This document shows positions 3,059 through 12,968 of a stretch of DNA of 32,000 nucleotides, one piece after another. The DNA is from Okeania sp. (lineage in GTDB: Bacteria > Cyanobacteriota > Cyanobacteriia > Cyanobacteriales > Microcoleaceae). The notes beneath the pieces were generated by a model. That model had not been told where the DNA came from and made no database searches. It saw nothing but the letters and a program-made list of their open reading frames with translations. Each line of letters begins with the position of its first letter. The first letter of the stretch is position 1. Location of the stretch: positions 4,420 through 36,419 of the forward strand of contig NZ_JAYKGW010000070.1 of the NCBI RefSeq assembly GCF_035285525.1, written 5' to 3'. The translations under genes were made by a program, and so were the position numbers.

Positions 3059-4335
3059 ATGTTTACAGGAGGGATGATGCAGTTAGTGGAACGTACTATC
3101 ATTAACAAAAATCATCCCAATTATAAATCACTTGATGCTCTAGCTTTCTTGTCTAAAAATCTCTACAATATAGCTAACTACATAGTCAGACAAGAGTTTA
3201 TTAATAAAGGAAATTATCTAGATTATAAAAAGGTTCAAAATTTATTACAGTCGGGAGTAGATTATCAAGCAATACCAGCCAAAGTTGCTCAACAGGTTTT
3301 GATTCTTTTAGATAAAAATTGGCAAAGTTTTTTTCAAGCTATAAGAGCTTATAATGAATGTCCGAGTAAGTTTAAAAGTCGTCCTAAATTGCCAAAATAT
3401 AAAGATAAAAAGAAAGGGAGGAATATTTTAGTCTATACAAAACAAGCCATTAGTAAACCTCAATTAGTCAAAAATAAGAAGATATTACTATCAAAAAGTA
3501 AGCTATTTTTTGACAGTAAAATAAATTATGATTCTCTGCAACAAGTGAGAATTGTTCCTAAACTTAAATTACTTTGTGATAGAAGTGGTTTACGAATCCG
3601 TTGAAGTTAAATTAGATTTGTCAGAATATCATGTAGCTTCTGTAGATTTGGGAGTGAATAATTTGGCAACTGTAACATCAAATAAAAAAGGTTTTCAACC
3701 CTTAATTATTAACGGCAGACCAGTCAAATCAATCAATCAATTCTATAATAAGAAAAAGGGTAAACTACAATCAGAATTAAAGGATGCTAAAAGTAGTAAT
3801 CGAATCAAAAGATTATCGACAAAAAGAAATTTAAAGATTGATGATTATCTACATGTATACTAGCAGATATATTATTAATCATCTGATAGAGAACCAGATA
3901 GGAATTTTAGTAATAGGAAATAATCCTAACTGGAAACAAGGTATAAATCTGGACAAAAAAAACAATCAAAACTTTGTTCAAATTCCTTTTTTCAAGTTAA
4001 TTGAACAACTAAAATACAAAGCCTTGCTTAGTAGGAATCAAAGTAATAATTAATGAAGAGAGTTATACCTCAAAAGCTAGTTTTTTAGACTGGGACGATT
4101 TACCAGTTTATCAAAAAGGTGTCAAATATAAATAAGCGTGGTAAACGAGTGAAAAGAGGACTTTATGAAGCTTCAAATGGTGTCAAATACAATGAAATGC
4201 GTCAATTGAAGTTTAAATATATTACGAAAATTAGTCCCAAACGCTTTTAGCAATGGGATAGAGGAGCCAGTGCGTTGGGGGGGTTTCCCGACAGTCACGC
4301 AACTGGCGTGGTGTTGTAGTTCACCCCATTAAGGT
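3059..4335 (+). pseudogene. tnpB: IS200/IS605-family tnpB (OrfB/IS1341-type RNA-guided nuclease), multiply frameshifted, with no tnpA
   Basis: Homology runs through four reading frames: 3059-3604, 3552-3863, 3838-4053 and 4052-4135. Motifs include VDLGVNNLATV (RuvC-I Asp), IGILVIGNNPNWKQ, and NEESYTSKASFLD followed by GKRVKRGLYEASNG. The tail PKRFSNGIE...VVVHPIKV is broken by stops and by a roughly 40-nt hairpin insert at about 4266-4307. Confidence 0.85.
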
Positions 4336-4423: not shown

Positions 4424-4459
4424 CCTATTCCCTGTTCCTTGTTCCCTGTTCCCTATTCC
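4424..4459. repeat. STRR heptamer array (TTCCCTG-type)
   Basis: CCTATTCCCTGTTCCTTGTTCCCTGTTCCCTATTCC lies immediately 3' of the DarT-macro stop codon. Confidence 0.8.
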
Positions 4460-4469
4460 TTTGATTTGC

Positions 4470-5681
4470 TTAAAAATCAACAACTTGACTCAGTAAAAAA
4501 TCTGGGGATATTAGCCTTTCATCCAACTTTTTTTCTGCTGGTAAATATATAGCTACAGTAATATCCATAGAAGTTAAATATTTACACATTAGAGGTCCGA
4601 CATCTTCCCAATCTAAACCTCCTAAACCACGTCCAAGTGCAGGCATAGCTAAAGATTTTATGCCTTGTTTTTGATAATTATTGGCAAGCCATTCTAAACC
4701 ATTTTTTATATCTTCAATTTCCGAAGCATTTCGCCAATGTTTTTTGGTGGGAAAGAGCAAAAACCATTTTTGTTCATTATTCAAAAAATCTTGAGGGAGA
4801 AAAAATTTACTATCTCCTAATTGTTCTTTTACGGATGATTCTCTTTTATATAAATATGGCTTTCCTATTTGCAAATATTTGCTTTTACAAACTTCTTGGT
4901 ATCTAACATAAACATCTGGAAATCTATATTTTGCTGTTGATGCTAATCCTTTTCCCATCACACCAACACAATTAACACTTACAGTCAAAGTTTGCATATT
5001 AGAAAAGAACATATCCCCGCGAATCAGAGAAATATTTTCTGTTAACTTTCGACTCCATTCTGGTTGGAAAAACTTTGTTGGTTCAACTACAATAGAAATA
5101 TTTTTACCATAATTATTTCGGGCAAAAGTGTCTCTTAAAGATTGATTGGCTTTTTCACAAGCCACATAAATAGTTTGAATATTAGTAGCAGGAACTACAT
5201 CAGGAACTAAACATTCAGCCATAATTTTTCTTTTAGAACCATCCTCATTACTCCACCATTCTTTATCGGTTTCTTTTTTAATTTGTTTCAGAATATTTAA
5301 TTCTTCTGCTTCCTGAATAGAAATAATTTCCGAATCGTTATGAGCAGCATTCCCTGTAGTAATCCAAATATCTCTTCTAGTTAAAATATCTCGTTTCACT
5401 GAAATAATAACAATTTCTTCAATAGCATATTTATGAATAATTGAGTAAAGCATTGCATTTATAGGTTGAAAGTAAAGATTCGCAAAGCTCCACAATGATT
5501 TATTATTAAAAACTATTTTTTGATAACGATTATCGACTATTTGTGAGTTGTAAATTGTTGTAGGTTTTAGTTGATTATATTCTATTAATTGGTGAGATAG
5601 AATGCCTTTCTCTAAAATAGAGATGATATTTTCGATATGAGTAATATAGAATAAATTTTGAATACTTGTTTTGTGTACCAT
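4470..5681 (-). CDS. fusion protein: DarT-like (DUF4433) ADP-ribosyltransferase domain plus DarG-type macrodomain
   Basis: The N-terminal half carries FYITHIENIISILEKGIL, LYFQPINAMLYSI, ITTGNAA and KIMAECLVPDVVP (Glu156 at nt 5214-5216). The order and spacing match DarT. The C-terminal half carries VNCVGVMGKGLA, FPTKKHWR (Lys313 at nt 4743-4745) and PALGRGLGGLDWEDV, as in the DarG/TARG1-type macrodomain. It is one uninterrupted 403-aa ORF. Confidence 0.8.
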   Translation of the reverse strand: MVHKTSIQNLFYITHIENIISILEKGILSHQLIEYNQLKPTTIYNSQIVDNRYQKIVFNNKSLWSFANLYFQPINAMLYSIIHKYAIEEIVIISVKRDILTRRDIWITTGNAAHNDSEIISIQEAEELNILKQIKKETDKEWWSNEDGSKRKIMAECLVPDVVPATNIQTIYVACEKANQSLRDTFARNNYGKNISIVVEPTKFFQPEWSRKLTENISLIRGDMFFSNMQTLTVSVNCVGVMGKGLASTAKYRFPDVYVRYQEVCKSKYLQIGKPYLYKRESSVKEQLGDSKFFLPQDFLNNEQKWFLLFPTKKHWRNASEIEDIKNGLEWLANNYQKQGIKSLAMPALGRGLGGLDWEDVGPLMCKYLTSMDITVAIYLPAEKKLDERLISPDFLLSQVVDF

Positions 5682-5810
5682 CTGTTTTTAATGTTTGTAG
5701 TTCCGCTGTCACGTTTCTTTGCCTGACTGAAAGGCAGAGCCTAGCGGCAGCTATATCGCTCAGGTTCAGAAAAAAATTATATGGTTATTTACTTATATTT
5801 AATAGTTAAA

Positions 5811-6221
5811 TTAACTATTCCAGAAATTATCATAAATAGATTTAATAGCCTTTTCTAAAGGTGGTAGATAATTTTCTACCACATCCCAAACTACTTCAAT
5901 ATCAATCCCTAAATATTCATGGGCTAATCTATTTCTAAATCATGCTATTTTTTCCCACAAAATGTTTGGTTCTGAATCTTTCCATTCTGTCGGTAACTTT
6001 TTAATAGACTCACACATAACCTCTAGATTTTTCAAGACAGCATCTTGGATAATAGGTAAACATTCAGTCGTCAGCTATCAGCTATCATAAGACTGATTTT
6101 AATCTTTGATAAAAGCTTTATTAATTAAGCAAAAAAAATCTTCTTTCCCTTCTTTATTATCAACCTTTATCCTGGTTAAACAGTCTCTAATGTGAATTAA
6201 ATAAACTCTCTTTTATTTCAT
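5811..6221 (-). pseudogene. HEPN (DUF86) toxin gene remnant
   Basis: The minus strand reads MK*KRVYLIHIRDCLTRIKVDNKEGKEDFF, then a frame break at the inserted GCTGATAGCTGA heptamers (about 6066-6082), then LPIIQDAVLKNLEVMCESIKKLP...WEKIA*FRNRLAHEYLGIDIEVVWDVV. The Rx4-6H HEPN motif (RNRLAH) is present. There is a TAA at codon 3 and an in-frame TGA at 5940-5942. Confidence 0.7.
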
Positions 6222-6238
6222 AAATTAATCGCCTACTT

Positions 6239-6511
6239 TCAGACATTTTCCTTAATAAAATAATGTAAAGATTTAGTAGAAACTACATCGACTTTTCTAT
6301 TTAAAAGCTGTTCTAAATCTTCTATTAAACCAACAGGAAACCAAGGAGAAATCTTAGACAAATCATAATCAATCAAAAAATCTATGTCACTATTTTCTGC
6401 CTCTTCTCCCCTAGCTACCGAGCCAAACACCCTGACATTAAATGACCCATGTTTAGCAGCTAAAGCTAATATTTCCTCTCGTTTTTATTGTAAGTATTTC
6501 TTAAGTTTCAT
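6239..6511 (-). pseudogene. MNT-type nucleotidyltransferase antitoxin gene with a premature stop at codon 9
   Basis: From the ATG at 6511 the minus strand reads MKLKKYLQ*KREEILALAAKHGSFNVRVFGSVARGEEAENSDIDFLIDY. The GSxxRGE...DxD motif marks a minimal nucleotidyltransferase. The in-frame TAA is at 6485-6487. The listed ORF 6239..6430 is the part after the stop (GTG start). The gene lies directly upstream of the HEPN remnant, as in HEPN/MNT modules. Confidence 0.7.
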
Positions 6512-6846
6512 TTTTCTATGTTAACATTTTATTGGTAATTTTTTGCCACAATTTTAGTTTCCCATAATTTTAGTCTTTTTTGAGTATTAAGTATTAATAG
6601 TTAAAAATATTTGTACCCACATTCGGCACTTAAATTTATAATCTTAAAAGAACCGGTAAGTTGGCTAGATAAAAATATAATTTACTGATATAATGGATAA
6701 TAGTTTGGTCAGAAAAAGCTTCTTTCCTTTCTTTTTTGGAAAGGAGCGATAATGCTCCGCATCGCTGACGCGATCGCCTCTTGGTAACAACTATCCTGAA
6801 TAAAATATTTTATAATTAAGTAAGCTCTTAACTTTCAAAAGTTTCT

Positions 6847-7521
6847 ATGTCTCAAAGCACTTTAATATCAACAAAAATTCCACCCCTGGAAAACGGCGAT
6901 AAACTTAATTGTATTCAATTTGAAAGGCGTTATGAACAAATGCCTCATATCAAAAAAGCTGAACTAATTGCAGGAATTGTTTATATAGCATCACCTTTAA
7001 GGATTAATGAACATGGAGAACCTCATGCTTCAATTATAACATGGCTTGGTTTCTATAAAGCTTTTACTCCTAATCTGCAAATAGGAGATAATTGTACAGT
7101 ACGTCTTGATGCAGAAAATCAACCTCAACCTGATGTTTTACTCAGAATTAATGTTGATGGTCAATCGACAATTAGTAAAGATGGCTATGTAGAAGGTGCG
7201 CCAGAATTAATTATAGAAATTGCAGCTAGCAGTGCATCTATTGATTTACATCAAAAATTAAAAACTTATCAAAATAATCAAGTACAAGAATATTTAGTTT
7301 GGCGGATTTATGACAGAGAAATTGATTGGTTTAGGTTAAAAAACAGAAAATATATTAAACTTAAATCCAATGAAAAAGGGATTATTTGTAGTGAATATTT
7401 CCCTGGTTTATGGTTAGACAAAGAAGCTTTAATTTCAGGAAATTTAGCCAAAGTATTAGCAATTTTACAACAGGGATTAAATTCTCCAGAATATCAAAAA
7501 TTTGTCAAAAATTATGATTAA
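6847..7521 (+). CDS. Uma2-family (DUF820) putative PD-(D/E)xK endonuclease
   Basis: QPQPDVLLRI followed by APELIIEIAASSASIDLHQKLKTYQNNQVQEYLVW matches the Uma2 core pattern (PD..., PEL.vEi.S.s....D...K...Y...gv.EYw). The ORF is 224 aa. Confidence 0.85.
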   Translation: MSQSTLISTKIPPLENGDKLNCIQFERRYEQMPHIKKAELIAGIVYIASPLRINEHGEPHASIITWLGFYKAFTPNLQIGDNCTVRLDAENQPQPDVLLRINVDGQSTISKDGYVEGAPELIIEIAASSASIDLHQKLKTYQNNQVQEYLVWRIYDREIDWFRLKNRKYIKLKSNEKGIICSEYFPGLWLDKEALISGNLAKVLAILQQGLNSPEYQKFVKNYD

Positions 7522-8006: not shown

Positions 8007-11000
8007 ATGGCAATATACCAAACCGAACCATCTAAATTTTCCCAATTACTCAAAAAAGTAAAAAATGGAGACGAACTCAACCTCCAACCAGGAGATTACA
8101 AAGCTCCTTTTACCATTGATAAATCAATTACTATTCGTGGTAGCGGCACCGATACCGTAATTTTTGCTGCCACCGAAACTCCTCTCACCATAACAGTTCC
8201 CGAAGTACGATTGGAAAATCTCACAGTGGAGCGTACAGTTGGTGGCGAACAAGGGGAAGTTGCTATATTTGCCGAACCTAATACTAAACCCATTTTGAGT
8301 CAAGTCAAATTAAATGGGGTTGCGGAAAATGTGGAATGGGAGGGAGCAAGTTGGGATATTCCCACGATGCTCGATTTTGGGGAAGTAGAAATTAACCGAC
8401 AAGTGGAACGAGGATGGGAGTTACAACTGGGTGCGGTTTGTCAGGTTTTGTGTAATCTAAATTGGTTGCAGGTGCGCTCCAGTTATCTTTCACCGGGACG
8501 ACAAAATTTGGATTTGGTGTTGAATACTGCTGATGTTCCTACTGGTACAAATTTATCTGGTTTAATTTCTCTGTTTTCAGAAGGTGGGAGACGAGAGTTG
8601 GAGGTTGCTGCTAAGGTTATTTCCTCAGCTCCGGCAACTCCAGTGGTGGCAGTGGAAACACAAGATTTATCTGCTAAAGTTTTGACTTCTCAAGATTGGG
8701 GTTATCGGTTTATCGGTAGTGCGGTGGATAGGTTGGTTCGGACTCAGTTGGGTGAAAGTGCCATGAAGAAATATCCAGAATTTTCGGATCGTCGCGCGAA
8801 AGCAGAATTATTGATGTCTGAGATATTGGATGAAGATTCTCATTTATATTATGTGCGTCGTCAAGCACCGGGAAAGGAAGAGGGGGAGGAAGTTTGGGAA
8901 CTGACAATGGCTACGGATAGGGAGGATGAATGGGAAAAAACGTTGAAACTTAGGGGAGCAGTTAATATTGATGGAGACAGGGTTTTCAAAATATTATCGG
9001 TGCAGTTTATTTCTCATAAAGCAGAAGCAGATGAGTTTAGTGTTGCTTTGCAAATCCGTTTATTGCCACAACATCAGTTCCGACGAAAGATACCATTGGG
9101 AGCGGTGCGCTCTATCCAAAAAATGCCTTTTTTTGGCGATCGCTTACTAACGGAGGATCAACTTCCTATTTGGACGACTTTTGTGAAAATGGAGCAGCGT
9201 CTCGCAGAAAAACGTCAATTTTGTTTACCTTATTCTAGTCACAACTACGGTAGTGCTAAGAAAAGGATTACTTTTGAAATTGATATTCGGGCGGCAACTA
9301 TTGATGGAACGCCAGAAACTTCTCTGGAAGATATGGAGTTACGGCGACGACTTTTTGAGGCAAAAAATCAAAATATTCAACTTTTTTCCAGTTCTCCAGC
9401 AGGTAGGGATGGTAGAGATGGGGAAAAGTTGGGAGCGATCGCTTCTATTGATTGGGAGAAGAGTCAAGTACGGATCGCGTTGGATAGTGAGATTGTGGAA
9501 AGTATTGTTCGTGGGAGTTATCGTATACCGTCTACAGGATTTTTATTTTTTGTGGATTCTGGAGATATTGCTCAGGTGCAACGGAAACGAAGAGCGTTGG
9601 AAGATTTACAAAATGGTCGTTGTCAGAATCCATATTTGGGGGAATTTTTCTTTGATGCTACTTGTGCGCGAGTTCCAAAAAAGCGAGTGGAACTGCAACC
9701 CCAGAATTTATTGTTACCTGCTGCGAATGCTCATCAACTTGCTGCTGTGGAAAAGGTTTTGGCAGCAAAAGATTTGGCTTTGATTCAGGGTCCTCCTGGT
9801 ACTGGGAAAACTACTGTGATTGCGGAAATTTGTTATCAAGTTGCGTTACGGGGAGGGCGGACTTTGATTGCGTCTCAGGCAAATTTGGCGGTTGATAATG
9901 CTTTGAGCAGGTTGGTTCATAATCCGGTGATTCGTGCTGTACGCAAGGGAAAAGCTGAGAAGGTGCAAGTGGAAGGGGAGCCATTTTTGGAGGAACGGGT
10001 GATTGATACTTGGTTAAAAAATACTGCTAATGATTGTGAAAAAGATTTGGGGGAGCGACTGCAACGGGTGGAAGTTTTACGGAATTTATTGATAGAGTCT
10101 GAGAGATTTAATGGTTATTTCGAGTTGGAGAAAAAATGGGTAAATGAACAGAAGGAGTTGAGCGATCGCCAAATTATTTTGGAGGCAAGTCGGATAGCAT
10201 TGGAGGCTGAATTTTTGCAGTTGGAAACTGATAGGAAGGAGTTAGATTTTTTGGTATTGGGATTAGATAATTTGTTAAATTCTGCACCGAATATTAATTG
10301 GGAAAATGAGGAAGTTAGAATTTTTTTAGCTCGTTTACAACCTTATGCTCAGGAGGAAAGTTCGGTTAAAGATTTAATAGAGAATGTGGGTTTAGGTCGG
10401 AATCTTGCTAAAGATATTGGTTGGGAAATTCCGCAATTAGGAGCTTTTGGTTTAGCAGTTTGGTTACAGGAAAATTTAGTTGTTTTATTGCCAGAATTTC
10501 AGAGTGGTTTAGCTGTGGCAAAAAAAGCTGTTTTGGCAATGTCGGAAACTGAGAAATTATTACAGATTTATCAACAGGTTCATGGTAATTTTGAGCGGTT
10601 GAAAAAAGATATTCAGCAAGGAGAGATAATTTCAGAAAGTTTAGGAGAAAAGCGTCAAGAATTAGAAAGGGAAAAAAGTCAGATAGATTTAGTTGTTGGA
10701 GAAGTAGGTGTCTGGATAAAAAAAATTGGTAAAGAACGGATATTTGAGGAATTGAAAAAATGTTGGGAAACTGGTGAAAGTTTTCAATTAGATTCAATTG
10801 GATTACCAGAAAGTTTAATGAAAGTTGCTAGTAGAGAAAAATTACAACTTTTGCCAAATTATGCTCAACGGATTAATCATTTGCCAGATTGGGAAAGATT
10901 GGAAAAAGCATTAAATGCCGAGTCAAGTCGTGGCTTTAAAAATATCCAAGGAAAAGAATATCGTTTTGATGAATTTTTACAAATTACTCTGAGTCAAGCA

Positions 11001-12968
11001 CCGATAGTTTTGTCAGAAAGAGATTATCAAAACTGGCAAGAGTTTGCTAAATCATTTATAAATTATCCCCAACTTGGTCAACAAGAACGACAAAGTTTAG
11101 TGAGAAAAATTCAACAATTTTTCCATAAAAATAAACAGAAATATAGTTTAGTTTGGCAACCAGAGAATATAACAAAAACTTTCACAGAAGTGATAGATAA
11201 AATTTTCAATAAAATTCTCCATAATTCTCGTGAATTTTTACTTCCTGCTAAACAAGAAAATCTCAAACAAATCCTGAAAAATGAGAAACTATCAGAGGAA
11301 AATATACAATTATTGGCAAACCAGAGACAAAGACTAGAAATAGTCGATAAAAAAGGAAAAGATTCTCGACAAAAACTGGAAGAAAAATATCAAGAGCTTG
11401 TGGCAATTTTAAAAGAAATAGATTCTCAAACAGGAGTTAATCCAGAAATTAGCGATTTAGTCAAACAATATCTTGAATGGCAACCATTGCAGATATTAAA
11501 CGATAAATCAAATTTTGCCGAAAAAGTAAATTATTGGGAAAATAGTTTAAATCAACTTAAAAAAATATCTCCTCAACTACAACCTTTTACCGTTCTGAAA
11601 GAAATCAAAAATATTCTCCAAGAAAGACTAAACACCATCCAAGAAAAAGCCGATAAATTGCCGGAAAAAATCGAATCTTGCCAAACAAAAATTAATCAAA
11701 TTAAAACGGAATTAGAACAAACATTACCAACCAACTTAATTCAAGAAAGAAACTGGTGGAAATTAGCATGGTCAAAAATTCCAGAAAATCTCAAACCCGC
11801 CGTTGAGGAAACAGAATTATTTGCCATCGAACTATTACATAAAATTAAACTGCAACAGAAAAATTGGCAACAAGAATTAGAAACAGAAGAAACCCTCCTA
11901 AATCAACACCAAAAATTTATTCAAGACTGGATAAAAAAACTCAAACAACCTTCAGAAAAAGATAGTAACGAGCTGAGAAAAATTTACCTTGATAATGCCA
12001 ACGTTATTGGTATTACCTGCGTCCAAGCTGCCAGTCGAAACTTTGCCGAAGAATTTAATAGTTTCGACGTCGTAATAATAGATGAAGTTAGTAAATGTAC
12101 TCCTCCAGAAATATTAATTCCGGCATTAAAAGGCAAAAAATTAGTATTAGTAGGAGACCATCGTCAATTACCACCAATGCTTAACGATAATACCATTGAA
12201 GAAATTGCTGAAGAGATGAAAATTTCCAAAGAAGAATTAGACTTTTTAGAAGAATCACTCTTTAAAACTCACTTCGAGACAGCCAAAGAAGAAATCAAAC
12301 AAATGTTAACTATTCAATATAGAATGCACCCCAATATTATGGGAGCAATTAATCAATTTTATCAACATCGTTTAGAATGCGGTCTTATCAGACCAGACAA
12401 AAAACGTTCCCATAATTTAGAAGGTAAAATTATTCAAGAAAATCAACATCTTATCTGGGTAAAAATGCCACAGTCAGAAAACTTTATGGAACAAAAAGAA
12501 GGAACATCACCTTTTAACAAAAAAGAAGTTGATGCCATTGAAAAAATATGTGGAGAAATGGAGAAATCTTGGTCTGTGAAAGTTGCTGAGGGTTTGCCAA
12601 GAAAAGAATTAGGAATTATTACATTTTATAATGCTCAGTTGCGATTAATAGAGTCGAGAATTAATCCTGAAAATTTTCCATCCTTACATATTAGAACTGG
12701 AACAGTTGATAGATTTCAAGGAATGGAAAGACAGGTAATTATTGTTAGTATGGTCAGAAATAATGACTTAGGAAAAGTAGGATTTGCCAAGAAACCAGAA
12801 CGGGTAAATGTTGCTTTTTCTCGCGCTCAAGAATTGTTAATTATTGTGGGATGTCATAAATTATTTACACAACATTATGGAACTGTAGGAAATATGTATT
12901 CAGAAGTTTCTGATGTGGTGCGCAGTCAAGGGGGATTGATAGAAATTTCAGATATTTTAATGACCTAA
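8007..12968 (+). CDS. 1653-aa multidomain SF1 (Upf1/DNA2-like, AAA_11/AAA_12-type) helicase with a beta-helix-like and Ig-like N-terminus and a very long coiled-coil-like insertion
   Basis: Walker A is LIQGPPGTGKTT (aa 595-602, nt 9789-9812) and motif Ia is LIASQANLAVDNAL. About 700 K/E/Q/L-rich residues follow. Motif II is VVIIDEVSK (Asp-Glu at aa 1359-1360, nt 12081-12086) and motif III is LVGDHRQLPPM. Further motifs are QYRMHPNI, GIITFYNAQ, TVDRFQGMERQVIIVS and VNVAFSRAQELLIIVG. N-terminal aa 1-105 resemble a short right-handed beta-helix (ITIRGSG..., LENLTVER). Aa about 115-205 resemble an Ig-like sandwich (LDFGEVEINRQV...LDLVLNT...). Confidence 0.9.
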   Translation: MAIYQTEPSKFSQLLKKVKNGDELNLQPGDYKAPFTIDKSITIRGSGTDTVIFAATETPLTITVPEVRLENLTVERTVGGEQGEVAIFAEPNTKPILSQVKLNGVAENVEWEGASWDIPTMLDFGEVEINRQVERGWELQLGAVCQVLCNLNWLQVRSSYLSPGRQNLDLVLNTADVPTGTNLSGLISLFSEGGRRELEVAAKVISSAPATPVVAVETQDLSAKVLTSQDWGYRFIGSAVDRLVRTQLGESAMKKYPEFSDRRAKAELLMSEILDEDSHLYYVRRQAPGKEEGEEVWELTMATDREDEWEKTLKLRGAVNIDGDRVFKILSVQFISHKAEADEFSVALQIRLLPQHQFRRKIPLGAVRSIQKMPFFGDRLLTEDQLPIWTTFVKMEQRLAEKRQFCLPYSSHNYGSAKKRITFEIDIRAATIDGTPETSLEDMELRRRLFEAKNQNIQLFSSSPAGRDGRDGEKLGAIASIDWEKSQVRIALDSEIVESIVRGSYRIPSTGFLFFVDSGDIAQVQRKRRALEDLQNGRCQNPYLGEFFFDATCARVPKKRVELQPQNLLLPAANAHQLAAVEKVLAAKDLALIQGPPGTGKTTVIAEICYQVALRGGRTLIASQANLAVDNALSRLVHNPVIRAVRKGKAEKVQVEGEPFLEERVIDTWLKNTANDCEKDLGERLQRVEVLRNLLIESERFNGYFELEKKWVNEQKELSDRQIILEASRIALEAEFLQLETDRKELDFLVLGLDNLLNSAPNINWENEEVRIFLARLQPYAQEESSVKDLIENVGLGRNLAKDIGWEIPQLGAFGLAVWLQENLVVLLPEFQSGLAVAKKAVLAMSETEKLLQIYQQVHGNFERLKKDIQQGEIISESLGEKRQELEREKSQIDLVVGEVGVWIKKIGKERIFEELKKCWETGESFQLDSIGLPESLMKVASREKLQLLPNYAQRINHLPDWERLEKALNAESSRGFKNIQGKEYRFDEFLQITLSQAPIVLSERDYQNWQEFAKSFINYPQLGQQERQSLVRKIQQFFHKNKQKYSLVWQPENITKTFTEVIDKIFNKILHNSREFLLPAKQENLKQILKNEKLSEENIQLLANQRQRLEIVDKKGKDSRQKLEEKYQELVAILKEIDSQTGVNPEISDLVKQYLEWQPLQILNDKSNFAEKVNYWENSLNQLKKISPQLQPFTVLKEIKNILQERLNTIQEKADKLPEKIESCQTKINQIKTELEQTLPTNLIQERNWWKLAWSKIPENLKPAVEETELFAIELLHKIKLQQKNWQQELETEETLLNQHQKFIQDWIKKLKQPSEKDSNELRKIYLDNANVIGITCVQAASRNFAEEFNSFDVVIIDEVSKCTPPEILIPALKGKKLVLVGDHRQLPPMLNDNTIEEIAEEMKISKEELDFLEESLFKTHFETAKEEIKQMLTIQYRMHPNIMGAINQFYQHRLECGLIRPDKKRSHNLEGKIIQENQHLIWVKMPQSENFMEQKEGTSPFNKKEVDAIEKICGEMEKSWSVKVAEGLPRKELGIITFYNAQLRLIESRINPENFPSLHIRTGTVDRFQGMERQVIIVSMVRNNDLGKVGFAKKPERVNVAFSRAQELLIIVGCHKLFTQHYGTVGNMYSEVSDVVRSQGGLIEISDILMT

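What the first reader, a model, noticed from the sequence alone, without database searches (positions are those of the whole stretch)
4470..5681. DarT-type ADP-ribosyltransferase and DarG-type macrodomain fused in a single 403-aa polypeptide
- Seen in sequence: one uninterrupted ORF. Its N-terminal half carries the DarT/DUF4433 signature blocks in the correct order: FYITHIENI, LYFQPINAMLYSI, ITTGNAA and KIMAECLVPDVVP with Glu156.
- Seen in sequence: its C-terminal half (aa about 215-385) carries the DarG/TARG1-type macrodomain blocks: VNCVGVMGKGLA, FPTKKHWR and PALGRGLGGLDWEDV.
- Established knowledge: in characterised DarTG (Jankevicius et al. 2016; phage defence shown by LeRoux et al. 2022), the DNA ADP-ribosylating toxin and the de-ADP-ribosylating antitoxin are separate proteins. 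DarG also has a C-terminal DarT-binding domain. That domain is absent here.
- Inference: both presumed catalytic residues look intact, so writer and eraser would be tethered in cis. That would need a different control logic, such as conformational gating, proteolytic release, or a substrate-limited modification system.
- Alternative: this is a recent read-through fusion of a decaying darT-darG operon whose 3' half was lost next to the STRR array and tnpB remnant.
Basis: partly seen in the sequence, partly recalled or inferred. Interest (0 to 1): 0.8.

Follow-up and report, generated by a model that had tools for sequence, protein, structure and literature searches.

The report
Single-chain DarT–macrodomain (fused DarTG) gene
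This cyanobacterial gene really does join a DNA ADP-ribosylating toxin to its eraser in one protein, but the fusion is an old, widespread type whose Thermosipho member was crystallised in 2021, and this copy has unusual changes at two strictly conserved residues.

Summary
Window 4470-5681 (minus strand) is one 403-aa ORF. It has an N-terminal DarT domain (Pfam E=1e-35) and a C-terminal DarG/TARG1-type macrodomain (PADLOC DarG E=4e-50). It lacks the DarG C-terminal domain.

The fusion is neither new nor a local lesion.
- The protein is 51% identical over its full length to PDB 7OMU, "Thermosipho africanus DarTG in complex with ADP-ribose" (released 2021). My template-free model superposes on it across both domains (TM 0.89/0.95).
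- At least 521 species-representative genomes from many phyla encode a relative. The 80 best loci kept all match over essentially the whole protein (47-91% identity), with a conserved junction and no conserved partner gene.

The catalytic residues are intact (E156, R52, K313). It sits beside decayed MNT/HEPN and tnpB genes, and one sister Okeania ortholog is a pseudogene.

Best reading: an Okeania member of the known fused DarTG2-like family, acting as a self-neutralising ssDNA ADP-ribosylation module and possibly attenuated here. How the fused family is regulated is not treated in the papers I could read.

The parts
4470..5681 (-). Complete 403-aa ORF encoding the fused DarT-macrodomain protein (single-chain DarTG), stop codon included.
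   Evidence: Searches show the ORF. It is 100% identical to P0001, [quoted passage not shown]. It has a full-length match to PDB 7OMU.
5067..5660 (-). DarT (DNA ADP-ribosyltransferase) domain, aa about 8-205.
   Evidence: Pfam PF14487 E=1.1e-35 and PADLOC DarT E=4.7e-30. A family profile against PDB hits Thermus DarT2 7omv at 7.5e-12, E. coli C7 DarT1 8baq at 5.8e-8 and Mtb DarT 7yk3 at 6.2e-5. H15, R52 and E156 are invariant.
5214..5216 (-). Codon GAA for Glu156, the catalytic glutamate of the ART fold (equivalent to Taq DarT E160).
   Evidence: The residue is invariant in A1. In a motif scan, E filled this position in all 213 sequences that carried the motif. The 7OMU chain has Ala here while the natural Thermosipho gene has Glu. 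The E160A mutant is non-toxic in Taq DarT (PMC5179494).
5526..5528 (-). Codon CGT for Arg52, equivalent to the active-site arginine R51 of DarT2 and R52 of DarT1.
   Evidence: The residue is invariant and aligns to the Thermus DarT segment ...QERRN.... Its role is described in PMC11543638.
5460..5462 (-). Codon ATA for Ile74, where the family has a near-invariant Arg (AGA in the closest relatives). The motif is F-x-P-R-x-P-M-L-Y.
   Evidence: Position 74 is R in 191, K in 1 and I in 1 (this gene only) of 193 fused relatives. Arg is also present in T. africanus DarTG, Thermus DarT2 and Mtb DarT. Codons are given.
5037..5096 (-). Domain junction, aa about 196-215 (VVEPTKFFQPEWSRKLTENI). It is a structured, conserved connector, not a loose linker.
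   Evidence: F204 is invariant and P201, F205 and P207 are at least 90% conserved. The model shows strand 196-199, helix 201-204 and strand 209-212, with block pLDDT of 82 (aa 191-200), 74 (201-210) and 91 (211-220).
4527..5036 (-). DarG/TARG1-type macrodomain (ADP-ribosyl glycohydrolase), aa about 216-385.
   Evidence: PADLOC DarG E=4.1e-50 and NCBIfam DarG E=3e-47 over profile positions 1-155 of 338. The family profile hits DarG macrodomains 5m3i and 5m31 at about 1e-28 and TARG1 at about 1e-11. Fold matches are 5m3e, 5m31 and 5m3i.
4743..4745 (-). Codon AAA for Lys313, equivalent to the catalytic Lys (K80) of DarG and K84 of TARG1.
   Evidence: The residue is invariant and aligns with the first K of ...FPTKKHWR... 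in Taq and Mtb DarG. K80 is stated to be critical for catalysis in PMC11543638.
4629..4631 (-). Codon CGT for Arg351, where the family has an invariant Cys (TGT in the closest relatives) in the macrodomain glycine-rich loop P-A-L-G-C-G-L-G-G.
   Evidence: Position 351 is C in 192 and R in 1 (this gene only) of 193 fused relatives. DarG and TARG1 have A, V or C here. Codons are given.
4424..4459 (.). Heptamer STRR array (CCTGTTC x5) directly 3' of the stop codon. It marks the downstream end of synteny with related genomes.
   Evidence: One search shows the array. Homology to L001 and L002 stops at about 4465.

Best explanation
**What it is (shown)**
The gene is an Okeania member of an old, widely transferred family of single-chain DarTG proteins. 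The prototype is Thermosipho africanus DarTG (PDB 7OMU). A DarT2-like DNA ADP-ribosyltransferase domain (aa about 8-205) is joined to a DarG-type macrodomain (aa about 216-385). The connector is short, conserved and structured, and the two domains keep a fixed geometry.

**How it most likely works (inferred)**
- The DarT domain transfers ADP-ribose from NAD+ onto thymidine in single-stranded DNA, as DarT2 does.
- The tethered macrodomain uses Lys313 to remove that mark. Writer and eraser are therefore made 1:1 from one gene, and the cell's own DNA is kept clean without a separate antitoxin or a DarG C-terminal clamp.
- The gene travels alone, like a small toxin-antitoxin or abortive-infection module.
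- Net DNA modification would appear only when the balance is tipped. That could be a surge of phage ssDNA, or a factor that blocks or moves the macrodomain, by analogy with the fused toxin-antitoxin CapRel.

**This particular copy**
- It carries two lineage-specific substitutions at otherwise invariant sites, one per domain (R74I and C351R).
- It lies among decayed genes, so it may be attenuated or on the way to inactivation.

**Confidence by step**
- Family identity: about 0.95.
- Self-neutralising toxin/eraser logic: about 0.5.
- Anti-phage role: about 0.35.
For: **Domain identity**
- Searches support both domains.

**Match to the solved fused protein**
- 7OMU aligns over aa 8-398 with E=4.6e-128. 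The family profile gives E=1.5e-179.
- The template-free AF2 model (pLDDT 85.5, pTM 0.73) superposes on 7OMU over 391 columns. TM is 0.89 by query and 0.95 by target, rmsd 2.0 A. Both domains must therefore sit as in the crystal.
- The 7OMU chain is the natural Thermosipho protein with the catalytic Glu changed to Ala. That is compatible with an active toxin domain in the fusion.

**The fusion is ancient and under selection**
- All 120 best protein hits are about 380-520 aa, and all carry DarT plus (in all but a few precomputed annotations) Macro.
- At least 521 species-representative genomes encode a relative. The 80 best loci kept match essentially the whole query.
- There are about 45 full-length clusters at 50% identity.
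- H15, R52, E156, K313 and G350/G352/G354 are invariant, and the junction is conserved.
- dN/dS against L001 and L002 is 0.22-0.26 overall, 0.24-0.30 for the DarT half and about 0.19 for the macro half.

**No partner gene**
- The largest neighbour family occurs in 9 of 80 loci.
- Among 115 immediate neighbours there are 154 Pfam families, none present in more than 4.

**DarT2-like rather than DarT1-like**
- The family profile scores Thermus DarT2 above DarT1.
- The partner is a macrodomain, not a NADAR domain.
- The model has a helix at 46-54 carrying R52. PMC11543638 says the NAD+-binding loop helix is prominent in DarT2 and lacking in DarT1.
- Macrodomain DarG reverses thymidine ADP-ribosylation through K80.

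**Precedent for a fused toxin-antitoxin released by a phage protein**
- CapRelSJ46, PMC11578894.

**Local context is defence- and mobile-element-like**
- MkoA-like helicase and Uma2/PDC-S03, an MNT/HEPN remnant and a tnpB remnant.

**Oddities of this copy**
-.
Against: - No biochemical or genetic data exist for any fused member in the papers I could read. Target base, toxicity, trigger and defence role are all inferred from DarTG2.
- The 2021 Nature paper that goes with 7OMU is not in the held library, so I could not read what it says about the fusion.
- Across 77 other genomes the immediate neighbours are mostly ordinary metabolic genes, with only scattered defence hits. Guilt by association for defence is therefore weak.
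- No fused copy was found on PLSDB plasmids. The plasmid hits with at least 80% coverage are 27-33% identical, and the three I inspected are canonical two-gene DarT plus full-length DarG.
- I could not inspect coordinates. Whether the macrodomain occludes the DarT cleft is unknown.
- For this copy, R74I and C351R might abolish one or both activities. Then nothing works here at all.
Confidence: 0.6

Rival explanations
1. This copy is a functionally dead or strongly attenuated relic. The ORF is still open, but R74I has crippled the transferase and C351R the hydrolase, in that order or together. The gene would be drifting towards the pseudogene state already reached by a sister Okeania genome. 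This rival concerns the state of this copy, not the family identity.
For: - Among 193 fused relatives, this protein alone lacks R/K at position 74 and lacks C at position 351.
- The Arg is also conserved in Thermus DarT2, Mtb DarT and T. africanus DarTG.
- Both changes are single-base and specific to the window lineage (AGA>ATA, TGT>CGT).
- Of the 18 amino-acid changes on the window branch, 2 hit columns that are at least 98% conserved. The count is 0 of 12 for L001 plus L002, and 1 of 16 (plus one column at 96%) for the proven pseudogene L003.
- L003 (Okeania sp. SIO3B5) has M1I and S62*.
- Adjacent genes are decayed: MNT and HEPN with in-frame stops, and tnpB in three pieces.
- The sequence is reproduced in an independent Logan assembly of SRR19514071, which argues against a contig error.
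Against: - The ORF is intact, and E156, R52, H15 and K313 are all present.
- The number of departures from columns at least 90% conserved (3) is ordinary for family members, which range from 1 to 9.
- The branch-specific N:S count is 18:16, roughly omega 0.3. That is the same as the apparently healthy L001 and L002 branches and far from neutral.
- Only 2 of 18 changes hit the 32% of columns that are at least 90% conserved. Most of the branch therefore evolved under constraint.
- The structural roles of R74 and C351 were not established here. DarG and TARG1 tolerate A, V or C at the 351 position.
Confidence: 0.35
2. The fused family is not a toxin-antitoxin or defence element. Instead it would be a housekeeping reversible ADP-ribosylation enzyme, for example marking ssDNA at replication or repair intermediates, or acting on another substrate. 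In that view writer and eraser are coupled to give a transient signal.
For: - In most genomes the gene sits between ordinary metabolic genes, with no defence-island signal.
- It is chromosomal rather than on plasmids.
- Strict 1:1 tethering makes classic antitoxin-turnover activation impossible.
- In M. tuberculosis, DarT is reported to target replication origins and slow growth (PMC10789625).
Against: - The distribution is patchy across unrelated phyla and there is no conserved synteny. That pattern fits horizontally moving accessory genes, not housekeeping ones.
- Sister Okeania genomes lose the gene by pseudogenisation.
- In Okeania it is linked to an MkoA-like helicase, Uma2 and toxin-antitoxin remnants.
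- Every characterised DarT is a growth-arresting toxin.
Confidence: 0.2
3. This is the first reader's alternative: a recent, strain-specific read-through fusion of a decaying darT-darG operon that lost the 3' half of darG next to the STRR and tnpB remnant.
For: - There is local decay around the gene.
- Synteny with relatives ends right after the stop codon.
- Canonical two-gene DarTG with a 345-362-aa DarG does exist in cyanobacterial and other plasmids.
Against: - The same fused architecture, with the same C-terminus (…FLLS…) and a conserved junction, is present in the 120 best protein hits. It is also present in the 80 best of at least 521 related loci, from Cyanobacteria to Thermotogota, and in crystal structure 7OMU.
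- The closest relatives L001, L002 and L004 have the identical single ORF, and dN/dS is about 0.2.
- The DarT half is only distantly related to canonical DarT2 (19% identity by structure). It cannot be a recent derivative of a canonical operon.
Confidence: 0.02
4. The polypeptide is a precursor. A host or phage protease cuts the junction and releases free DarT from the macrodomain to activate the toxin.
For: - Tethering rules out differential synthesis as a control.
- Some toxin-antitoxin systems are controlled by proteolysis of the antitoxin (general knowledge; summarises the labile-antitoxin model).
Against: - The junction is conserved and structured (strand-helix-strand, pLDDT 74-91). It has invariant F204 and near-invariant P201, F205 and P207. 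It is not a disordered, exposed linker.
- The two domains keep one rigid arrangement in both model and crystal.
- No protease gene is conserved nearby.
Confidence: 0.05

Closest known systems
Thermosipho africanus DarTG (PDB 7OMU, released 2021-06-23), a natural single-chain DarT-macrodomain protein
   Same: - It has the same length class (403 aa here; the 406-aa deposited chain includes about 20 extra N-terminal residues) and the same domain order.
- It is collinear over aa 8-398 at 51% identity.
- It has the same junction motif (…EP/DPxxFFxP…).
- It has the same catalytic residues, apart from the engineered E>A in the crystal construct.
- It has the same two-domain geometry (TM 0.89/0.95, rmsd 2.0 A).
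   Different: - The host is a marine filamentous cyanobacterium (Okeania) instead of a thermophilic Thermotogota bacterium.
- This copy has Ile instead of Arg at position 74 and Arg instead of Cys at position 351. T. africanus keeps the family residues at both.
- From memory, 7OMU accompanies Schuller et al. 2021 (Nature 596:597). That paper is not in the held library, so I could not check what was measured for the fusion.
Canonical two-gene DarTG2 (Thermus aquaticus, M. tuberculosis, EPEC): DarT2 toxin plus DarG antitoxin
   Same: - The DarT fold is shared, with the catalytic Glu and the active-site Arg.
- The macrodomain is TARG1/DarG-type with the catalytic Lys.
- The gene order is toxin then eraser.
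- The expected chemistry is reversible ADP-ribosylation of thymidine in ssDNA.
   Different: - Here there is one polypeptide instead of two.
- The DarG C-terminal (DarT-binding) domain is absent. By contrast, the plasmid DarG proteins I inspected are 341-362 aa.
- Scores are below the NCBIfam equivalog cut-offs for both DarT (81 against 150) and DarG (161.5 against 250).
- The DarT half is only about 19% identical to Thermus DarT, so this is a separate deep branch.
DarTG1 (DarT1 plus NADAR antitoxin; E. coli C7, Geobacter lovleyi)
   Same: It is a homologous DarT-family transferase acting on ssDNA, paired with a dedicated eraser, and it has an anti-phage role.
   Different: - DarT1 targets guanine, and its eraser is a NADAR domain, not a macrodomain.
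- DarT1 has a catalytic Asp two residues after the Arg (R52/D54) and lacks the NAD+-loop helix. The family here has no conserved Asp at that position, and the model has a helix at 46-54.
- The profile match is weaker (5.8e-8 against 7.5e-12 for DarT2).
CapRelSJ46, a fused toxin-antitoxin anti-phage protein
   Same: It has an N-terminal toxin and a C-terminal antitoxin in one chain, and it is a single-gene module. It is the documented precedent for cis-autoinhibition relieved by phage proteins.
   Different: - There is no homology.
- The CapRel antitoxin domain acts by binding the toxin, not enzymatically.
- The CapRel toxin pyrophosphorylates tRNA (from my own knowledge).
- Whether fused DarTG senses anything is unknown.
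DarHTG (DarT + DarG3 + helicase DarH; PMC13069673)
   Same: It is a DarTG variant with a non-canonical make-up. Here an SF1 helicase gene (MkoA-like) lies next to the fused DarTG in three Okeania-type genomes.
   Different: - DarH is UvrD-like and in the same operon, and DarG3 is ARH-like.
- Here the helicase is Upf1/MkoA-like and divergently transcribed. It is separated from DarTG by Uma2 and toxin-antitoxin remnants, and it is not conserved next to fused DarTG in other lineages.

Membership tests
DarT (Pfam PF14487 / DUF4433) DNA ADP-ribosyltransferases | Significant full-length match to the family profile, above the curated threshold. | tested here: met
   PF14487 scores 123.7 bits against a cut-off of 22.5, with profile positions 1-201 of 201 matched. 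PADLOC DarT gives E=4.7e-30.
DarT (Pfam PF14487 / DUF4433) DNA ADP-ribosyltransferases | Catalytic glutamate (Taq E160) and active-site arginine (DarT2 R51) are present. | tested here: met
   E156 and R52 are present and invariant in relatives. Their roles are described.
DarT (Pfam PF14487 / DUF4433) DNA ADP-ribosyltransferases | Conserved Arg of the F-x-P-R-x-P-M-L-Y motif. | tested here: not met
   The residue is Ile74 here. Arg is found in 191 of 193 fused relatives and in Thermus DarT2, Mtb DarT and T. africanus DarTG. The functional consequence is unknown.
DarT (Pfam PF14487 / DUF4433) DNA ADP-ribosyltransferases | NAD+-dependent ADP-ribosylation of ssDNA bases, and toxicity. | not testable with these tools
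   This needs in vitro assays and expression tests.
Canonical DarT toxin equivalog (NCBIfam NF048013) | Score above the equivalog cut-off. | tested here: not met
   The score is 81 bits against a cut-off of 150. The protein is a family member but not an equivalog of characterised DarT.
DarG antitoxin (NCBIfam NF048014 / PADLOC DarG) | TARG1-like macrodomain with the catalytic Lys (DarG K80). | tested here: met
   aa 217-385 match DarG profiles (E=4.1e-50; E=3e-47). K313 aligns with the catalytic Lys and is invariant.
DarG antitoxin (NCBIfam NF048014 / PADLOC DarG) | C-terminal DarT-binding domain (second half of a protein of about 330-360 aa). | tested here: not met
   Only profile positions 2-149 of 329 and 1-155 of 338 are matched, and the protein ends at aa 403. 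The score of 161.5 is below the cut-off of 250.
DarG antitoxin (NCBIfam NF048014 / PADLOC DarG) | Separate gene in a two-gene operon with darT. | tested here: not met
   There is a single ORF with no stop at the junction, here and in all close relatives.
Fused single-chain DarTG (prototype T. africanus DarTG, PDB 7OMU) | Collinear full-length sequence homology covering both domains and the junction. | tested here: met
   aa 8-398 align with chain residues 24-405 (E=4.6e-128). The profile gives E=1.5e-179.
Fused single-chain DarTG (prototype T. africanus DarTG, PDB 7OMU) | Same two-domain fold and the same relative domain arrangement. | tested here: met
   Foldseek gives TMq 0.89 and TMt 0.95, rmsd 2.0 A over 391 columns, using a template-free model.
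Fused single-chain DarTG (prototype T. africanus DarTG, PDB 7OMU) | All strictly conserved family residues are retained. | tested here: not met
   R74I and C351R are unique to this copy among 193 relatives. All other invariant residues are retained.
Fused toxin-antitoxin immune sensors (CapRel type) | Cis-autoinhibited toxin that is released by binding of a phage protein. | not testable with these tools
   Only the architecture (N-terminal toxin, C-terminal antitoxin, single gene) is analogous. There is no homology, and no trigger is known.

The most novel reading that the evidence does not exclude
**Family-level reading**
The fused DarTG family would work by a control logic different from two-gene DarTG. 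It would be a rigid single-chain writer-eraser that is constitutively present and discriminates invader from self in one of two ways.
- Kinetically: phage ssDNA floods the transferase faster than the tethered eraser can clear the marks.
- By a phage factor that blocks the macrodomain, in the manner of CapRel.

**This copy**
The Okeania copy, with matched hits in both domains (R74I and C351R), would be a naturally re-tuned, low-activity variant rather than a dying gene.

**Sub-clade with an N-terminal extension**
This group would add self-repression of transcription through a DNA-binding module.
Probability: 0.2. Interest if true: 0.6.

Novelty: new member of a known kind. Interest (0 to 1): 0.33.

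Why it matters
**For this window: little.** The gene is a correctly recognisable member of a family that is already annotated (NCBI names it a DarT family protein) and already has a crystal structure (7OMU).

**For the family: some open interest.**
- Reviews still describe DarTG as strictly two-component.
- The fused form nevertheless occurs in at least 521 species-level genomes across many phyla, with both active sites under selection and no partner gene.
- A toxin permanently tethered 1:1 to its enzymatic antitoxin cannot be activated by antitoxin turnover. The family is therefore a clean system for asking how DarT toxicity is unleashed, a question that is still open even for canonical DarTG.

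**The natural double variant.** The R74I/C351R copy offers a ready-made pair of reversion experiments.

**Practical annotation point.** Defence-system finders that expect separate DarT and DarG genes, and equivalog models with high cut-offs, will under-call this family.

Tried and rejected
1. **Literature.** Seven full-text searches and several in-paper searches found no discussion of a natural DarT-DarG fusion, T. africanus DarTG or 7OMU. The 2021 Nature paper and LeRoux 2022 are not held. What is known about the fusion therefore rests on the PDB title and date and on my memory of the source paper.
2. **Conserved partner gene.** All-against-all clustering of ORFs within 4 kb in 80 loci found no family in more than 9 loci, and those were Poribacteria synteny. 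Pfam and PADLOC scans of 115 immediate neighbours found no recurrent family and no clear defence enrichment. I rejected the idea of a hidden third component, and also the idea of a DarHTG-like helicase partnership outside Okeania.
3. **Plasmid or phage carriage.** No close fused homolog was found in PLSDB or in the phage collection.
   - Plasmid hits with at least 80% coverage are 27-33% identical, and the three I inspected are canonical two-gene DarTG.
   - Phage hits are essentially macrodomain-only.
4. **N-terminal extension of the ~470-520-aa relatives.** From its strand-helix(-helix) pattern I suspected a ribbon-helix-helix DNA-binding module. No Pfam, PDB-sequence or PHROG support was found, so this is unresolved. 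The window gene lacks the extension.
5. **Relaxed selection on this copy.** Pairwise dN/dS (0.22-0.26) and the branch-specific N:S count (18:16) do not differ from those of healthy-looking relatives. Only the two hits at invariant sites stand out, so this is inconclusive.
6. **Occlusion of the DarT cleft by the macrodomain.** This could not be examined because the tools return no coordinates.
7. **Promoter and terminator scan around the gene.** Counts were at shuffle level, so it was not informative.


Full report

Yes. The ORF listing and the raw sequence show one uninterrupted 403-aa ORF at 4470..5681 on the minus strand.

Profile searches put both domain calls far beyond chance.
- Pfam DarT covers the whole 201-position model at E=1.1e-35, and Pfam Macro gives E=9.4e-10.
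- PADLOC gives DarT 4.7e-30 and DarG 4.1e-50.
- NCBIfam gives DarT 9.4e-23 and DarG 3e-47.

The DarG matches stop at profile position about 150 of 329-338, and the protein ends about 18 residues later. The DarG C-terminal domain is therefore truly absent. Both NCBIfam scores are below the equivalog cut-offs (81 against 150; 161.5 against 250). The protein belongs to the families but is not an equivalog of the characterised proteins.

**2. What is it?**

*The decisive result: a solved fused homolog.*
- PDB 7OMU is a 406-residue chain that aligns with aa 8-398 of the query in one stretch (E=4.6e-128).
- An AlphaFold2 model was built without templates from 47 relatives (pLDDT 85.5, pTM 0.73). Its best Foldseek match is 7OMU, described as "Thermosipho africanus DarTG in complex with ADP-ribose", released 2021-06-23.
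- That match has TM 0.89 (by query) and 0.95 (by target), rmsd 2.0 A over 391 columns, at 51% identity. A TM-score that high over the whole length means the relative placement of the two domains is also the same.
- The next matches are the isolated parts: DarG macrodomains of T. aquaticus and M. tuberculosis, Thermus sp. 2.9 DarT, the Mtb DarTG complex, TARG1 and, more weakly, E. coli C7 DarT1.
- The 7OMU chain equals the natural protein of a Thermosipho genome (L078), except that the catalytic Glu is Ala. It is thus an engineered inactive mutant of a natural fusion.

*The fusion is widespread and old.*
- The identical protein is in NCBI as [quoted passage not shown].
- All 120 best hits of the protein search are about 380-520 aa. 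All carry DarT plus (in all but a few precomputed annotations) Macro, and they are 51-100% identical over 91-100% of the query.
The 80 best match essentially the whole query.
- Those 80 come from Cyanobacteria (Okeania, Symploca, Hormoscilla, Dolichospermum, Nostoc, Spirulina), Chloroflexota, Poribacteria, Planctomycetota, Ignavibacteria, Acidobacteriota, Thermodesulfobacteriota, Aquificaceae and Thermosipho.
- An exhaustive HMMER scan of 1.84 billion cluster representatives gives about 45 full-length clusters at 50% identity.
- In an alignment of 47 members the following are invariant: H15, R52, E156 (DarT), K313 and G350/G352/G354 (macrodomain), and F204 in the junction. P201, F205 and P207 are at least 90% conserved.
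- The model shows the junction as strand-helix-strand, not a floppy linker.
- dN/dS against the closest relatives is 0.22-0.26, and it is similar in both halves.

*Which DarT?*
- A profile of the family hits Thermus DarT2 (7.5e-12) better than E. coli DarT1 (5.8e-8) or Mtb DarT (6e-5). At about 19% structural-alignment identity it is a deep branch of its own.
- Its eraser is a macrodomain, the mark of the thymidine-specific DarTG2 class. DarTG1 uses NADAR and targets guanine (PMC11543638).
- It lacks a conserved Asp two residues after the active-site Arg, a feature of DarT1.
- The model has a helix in the NAD+-binding loop (aa 46-54), a feature that PMC11543638 ascribes to DarT2 and not to DarT1.
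- Thymidine ADP-ribosylation of ssDNA is therefore the best guess, but it remains an inference.

**3. Context**

*No partner gene travels with the fusion.*
- Among ORFs within 4 kb in 80 loci, the commonest family occurs in 9 loci, and that is Poribacteria synteny.
- The 115 immediate neighbours in 77 genomes hit 154 Pfam families, none more than four times, and most are metabolic. PADLOC hits among them are scattered.
- On plasmids I found only canonical two-gene DarTG: DarT of about 210 aa plus DarG of 341-362 aa, at 27-33% identity.
- In phages I found essentially only DarG-like macrodomains.

*In this window the gene lies in a small accessory patch between housekeeping genes.* PsbQ and a DAO oxidoreductase lie on one side; EF-G, TsaE, CofD and oxoprolinase lie on the other. 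The patch contains:
- a tnpB remnant in three pieces (3059-4053);
- an STRR array (4424-4459);
- the DarTG gene;
- an MNT/HEPN pair broken by in-frame stops (5700-6617);
- a Uma2 nuclease (PADLOC PDC-S03);
- a divergently transcribed 1653-aa SF1 helicase that matches Mokosh MkoA (E=2.6e-115).

*Synteny with relatives.* The order DarTG-Uma2-helicase is shared with L001, and DarTG-helicase with L002. The MNT/HEPN segment is an insertion specific to this genome, and homology ends at the DarTG stop codon.

**4. What is odd about this copy**

- Among 193 fused relatives, position 74 is R in 191, K in 1 and I only here. Position 351 is C in 192 and R only here.
- The Arg is also conserved in T. africanus DarTG, Thermus DarT2 and Mtb DarT.
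- Both are single-base changes on the window's own branch (AGA>ATA, TGT>CGT).
- They are reproduced in an independent assembly of SRR19514071.
- The sister ortholog in Okeania sp. SIO3B5 (L003) is a pseudogene (M1I, S62*).

Against decay:
- The ORF is open and the catalytic residues are intact.
- The branch's N:S count (18:16) equals that of healthy-looking relatives.
- Only 2 of 18 changes hit conserved columns.

I therefore rate "attenuated or recently inactivated" at about one in three.

**5. How it most likely works**

*Shown:* two enzymatic domains with conserved active sites, rigidly joined, encoded by a solitary and horizontally scattered gene.

*Inferred:*
- The DarT domain ADP-ribosylates ssDNA thymidines from NAD+.
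- The macrodomain removes the mark through Lys313. The protein thus carries its own antidote at fixed 1:1 stoichiometry. This replaces both the separate antitoxin gene and the DarG C-terminal clamp.
- Because antitoxin turnover cannot activate such a protein, release must come from something else. One option is substrate excess. Another is something that blocks or shifts the macrodomain. The documented precedent for a fused toxin-antitoxin is CapRelSJ46, which is opened by phage proteins.
- How DarT is unleashed is still unknown even for two-gene DarTG.
- The depositors of 7OMU crystallised an E>A mutant. This is compatible with the wild-type fusion being harmful in E. coli, but it is only a hint.

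*Rivals:* a dead or attenuated copy (0.35; this concerns only this gene), a housekeeping reversible mark (0.2), proteolytic release (0.05), and a recent read-through (0.02).

**6. Comparison with what is known, and novelty**

- The gene is a member of the fused DarTG family of 7OMU. Full-length homology and fold arrangement are met, and two invariant residues are not met.
- It works like DarTG2 but fails three defining features of the canonical system: a separate darG gene, the DarG C-terminal domain, and the equivalog scores.
[quoted passage not shown] I found no paper that discusses the fusion, so the family's biology is under-described.
- The architecture itself is nevertheless on public record (PDB, Pfam-based annotation, NCBI name).

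Verdict: new member of a known kind. Interest is modest. It rests on the open regulation question for a large family and on the natural R74I/C351R double variant.

Noticed in passing
window 5700-6617 (minus strand): There is a degraded MNT/HEPN toxin-antitoxin pair here. The nucleotidyltransferase reading frame has a stop after its first 8 codons (…KYLQ*KREEIL…), leaving a 63-aa GTG-started ORF at 6239-6430. The HEPN/DUF86 frame (motif RNRLAH) is broken by in-frame stops. The whole segment of about 920 bp is absent from the syntenic locus L001, where Uma2 directly follows DarTG.
   Followed up: partly
window 8007-12968 (plus strand): This is a 1653-aa SF1 (AAA_11/AAA_12) helicase matching PADLOC MkoA of Mokosh (E=2.6e-115). 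It is transcribed divergently from DarTG and is syntenic with it in L001 and L002. No PLD/MkoB partner is visible nearby, and the first ~1000 aa have almost no annotation (only a short Walker-type ATPase match at aa ~575-630).
   Followed up: partly
window 3059-4053 (plus strand): A tnpB (OrfB_IS605) remnant is split into three overlapping ORFs (181, 103 and 71 aa). It lies just beyond the point where synteny with related genomes ends.
   Followed up: partly
window 4424-4459: A short tandemly repeated heptamer array (CCTGTTC x5.1, 86% matches) starts about 10 bp after the DarTG stop codon. Homology to L001 and L002 ends at about 4465, so the array marks a rearrangement boundary.
   Followed up: partly
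window 6847-7521 (plus strand): A Uma2-family putative restriction endonuclease (Pfam E=1.1e-29), which also matches the PADLOC candidate system PDC-S03 (E=6e-16).
   Followed up: no
relatives P0007, P0015-P0017, P0020, P0022-P0026, P0028, P0030, P0033, P0035, P0036, P0039, P0045, P0046, P0060, P0095, P0101 (not in the window): About 10% of fused DarTG proteins carry a conserved N-terminal extension of 65-120 aa (M-x-RGG-x-R-x-GAGAK-x-W…T-T-IRVP…LL-x-IA-x-x-LD…). Its strand-helix(-helix) pattern suggests a ribbon-helix-helix-like DNA-binding module. No Pfam, PDB-sequence or PHROG match supports this.
   Followed up: partly
L003:6941-8152 (Okeania sp. SIO3B5): The ortholog of the window gene (88-91% identical) is a pseudogene. 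Its start codon is lost (M1I) and there is a premature stop at codon 62. It also carries N68S at a 98%-conserved site.
   Followed up: yes
phage records H27-H40 (phiEco32-like Escherichia and Shigella phages): These phages encode stand-alone macrodomains about 42% identical to the macro half of the query (aa 221-387). In total 195 phage records have such a match. They may be anti-DarT counter-defence genes of the kind reported for other phages.
   Followed up: no
L081, L082, L083 (Tolypothrix, Pigmentibacter and Bacillus thuringiensis plasmids): These carry canonical two-gene DarTG loci (DarT 197-211 aa plus DarG 341-362 aa) next to tyrosine recombinases or VapC. They are only 27-33% identical to the fused protein and serve as a useful contrast set.
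   Followed up: partly
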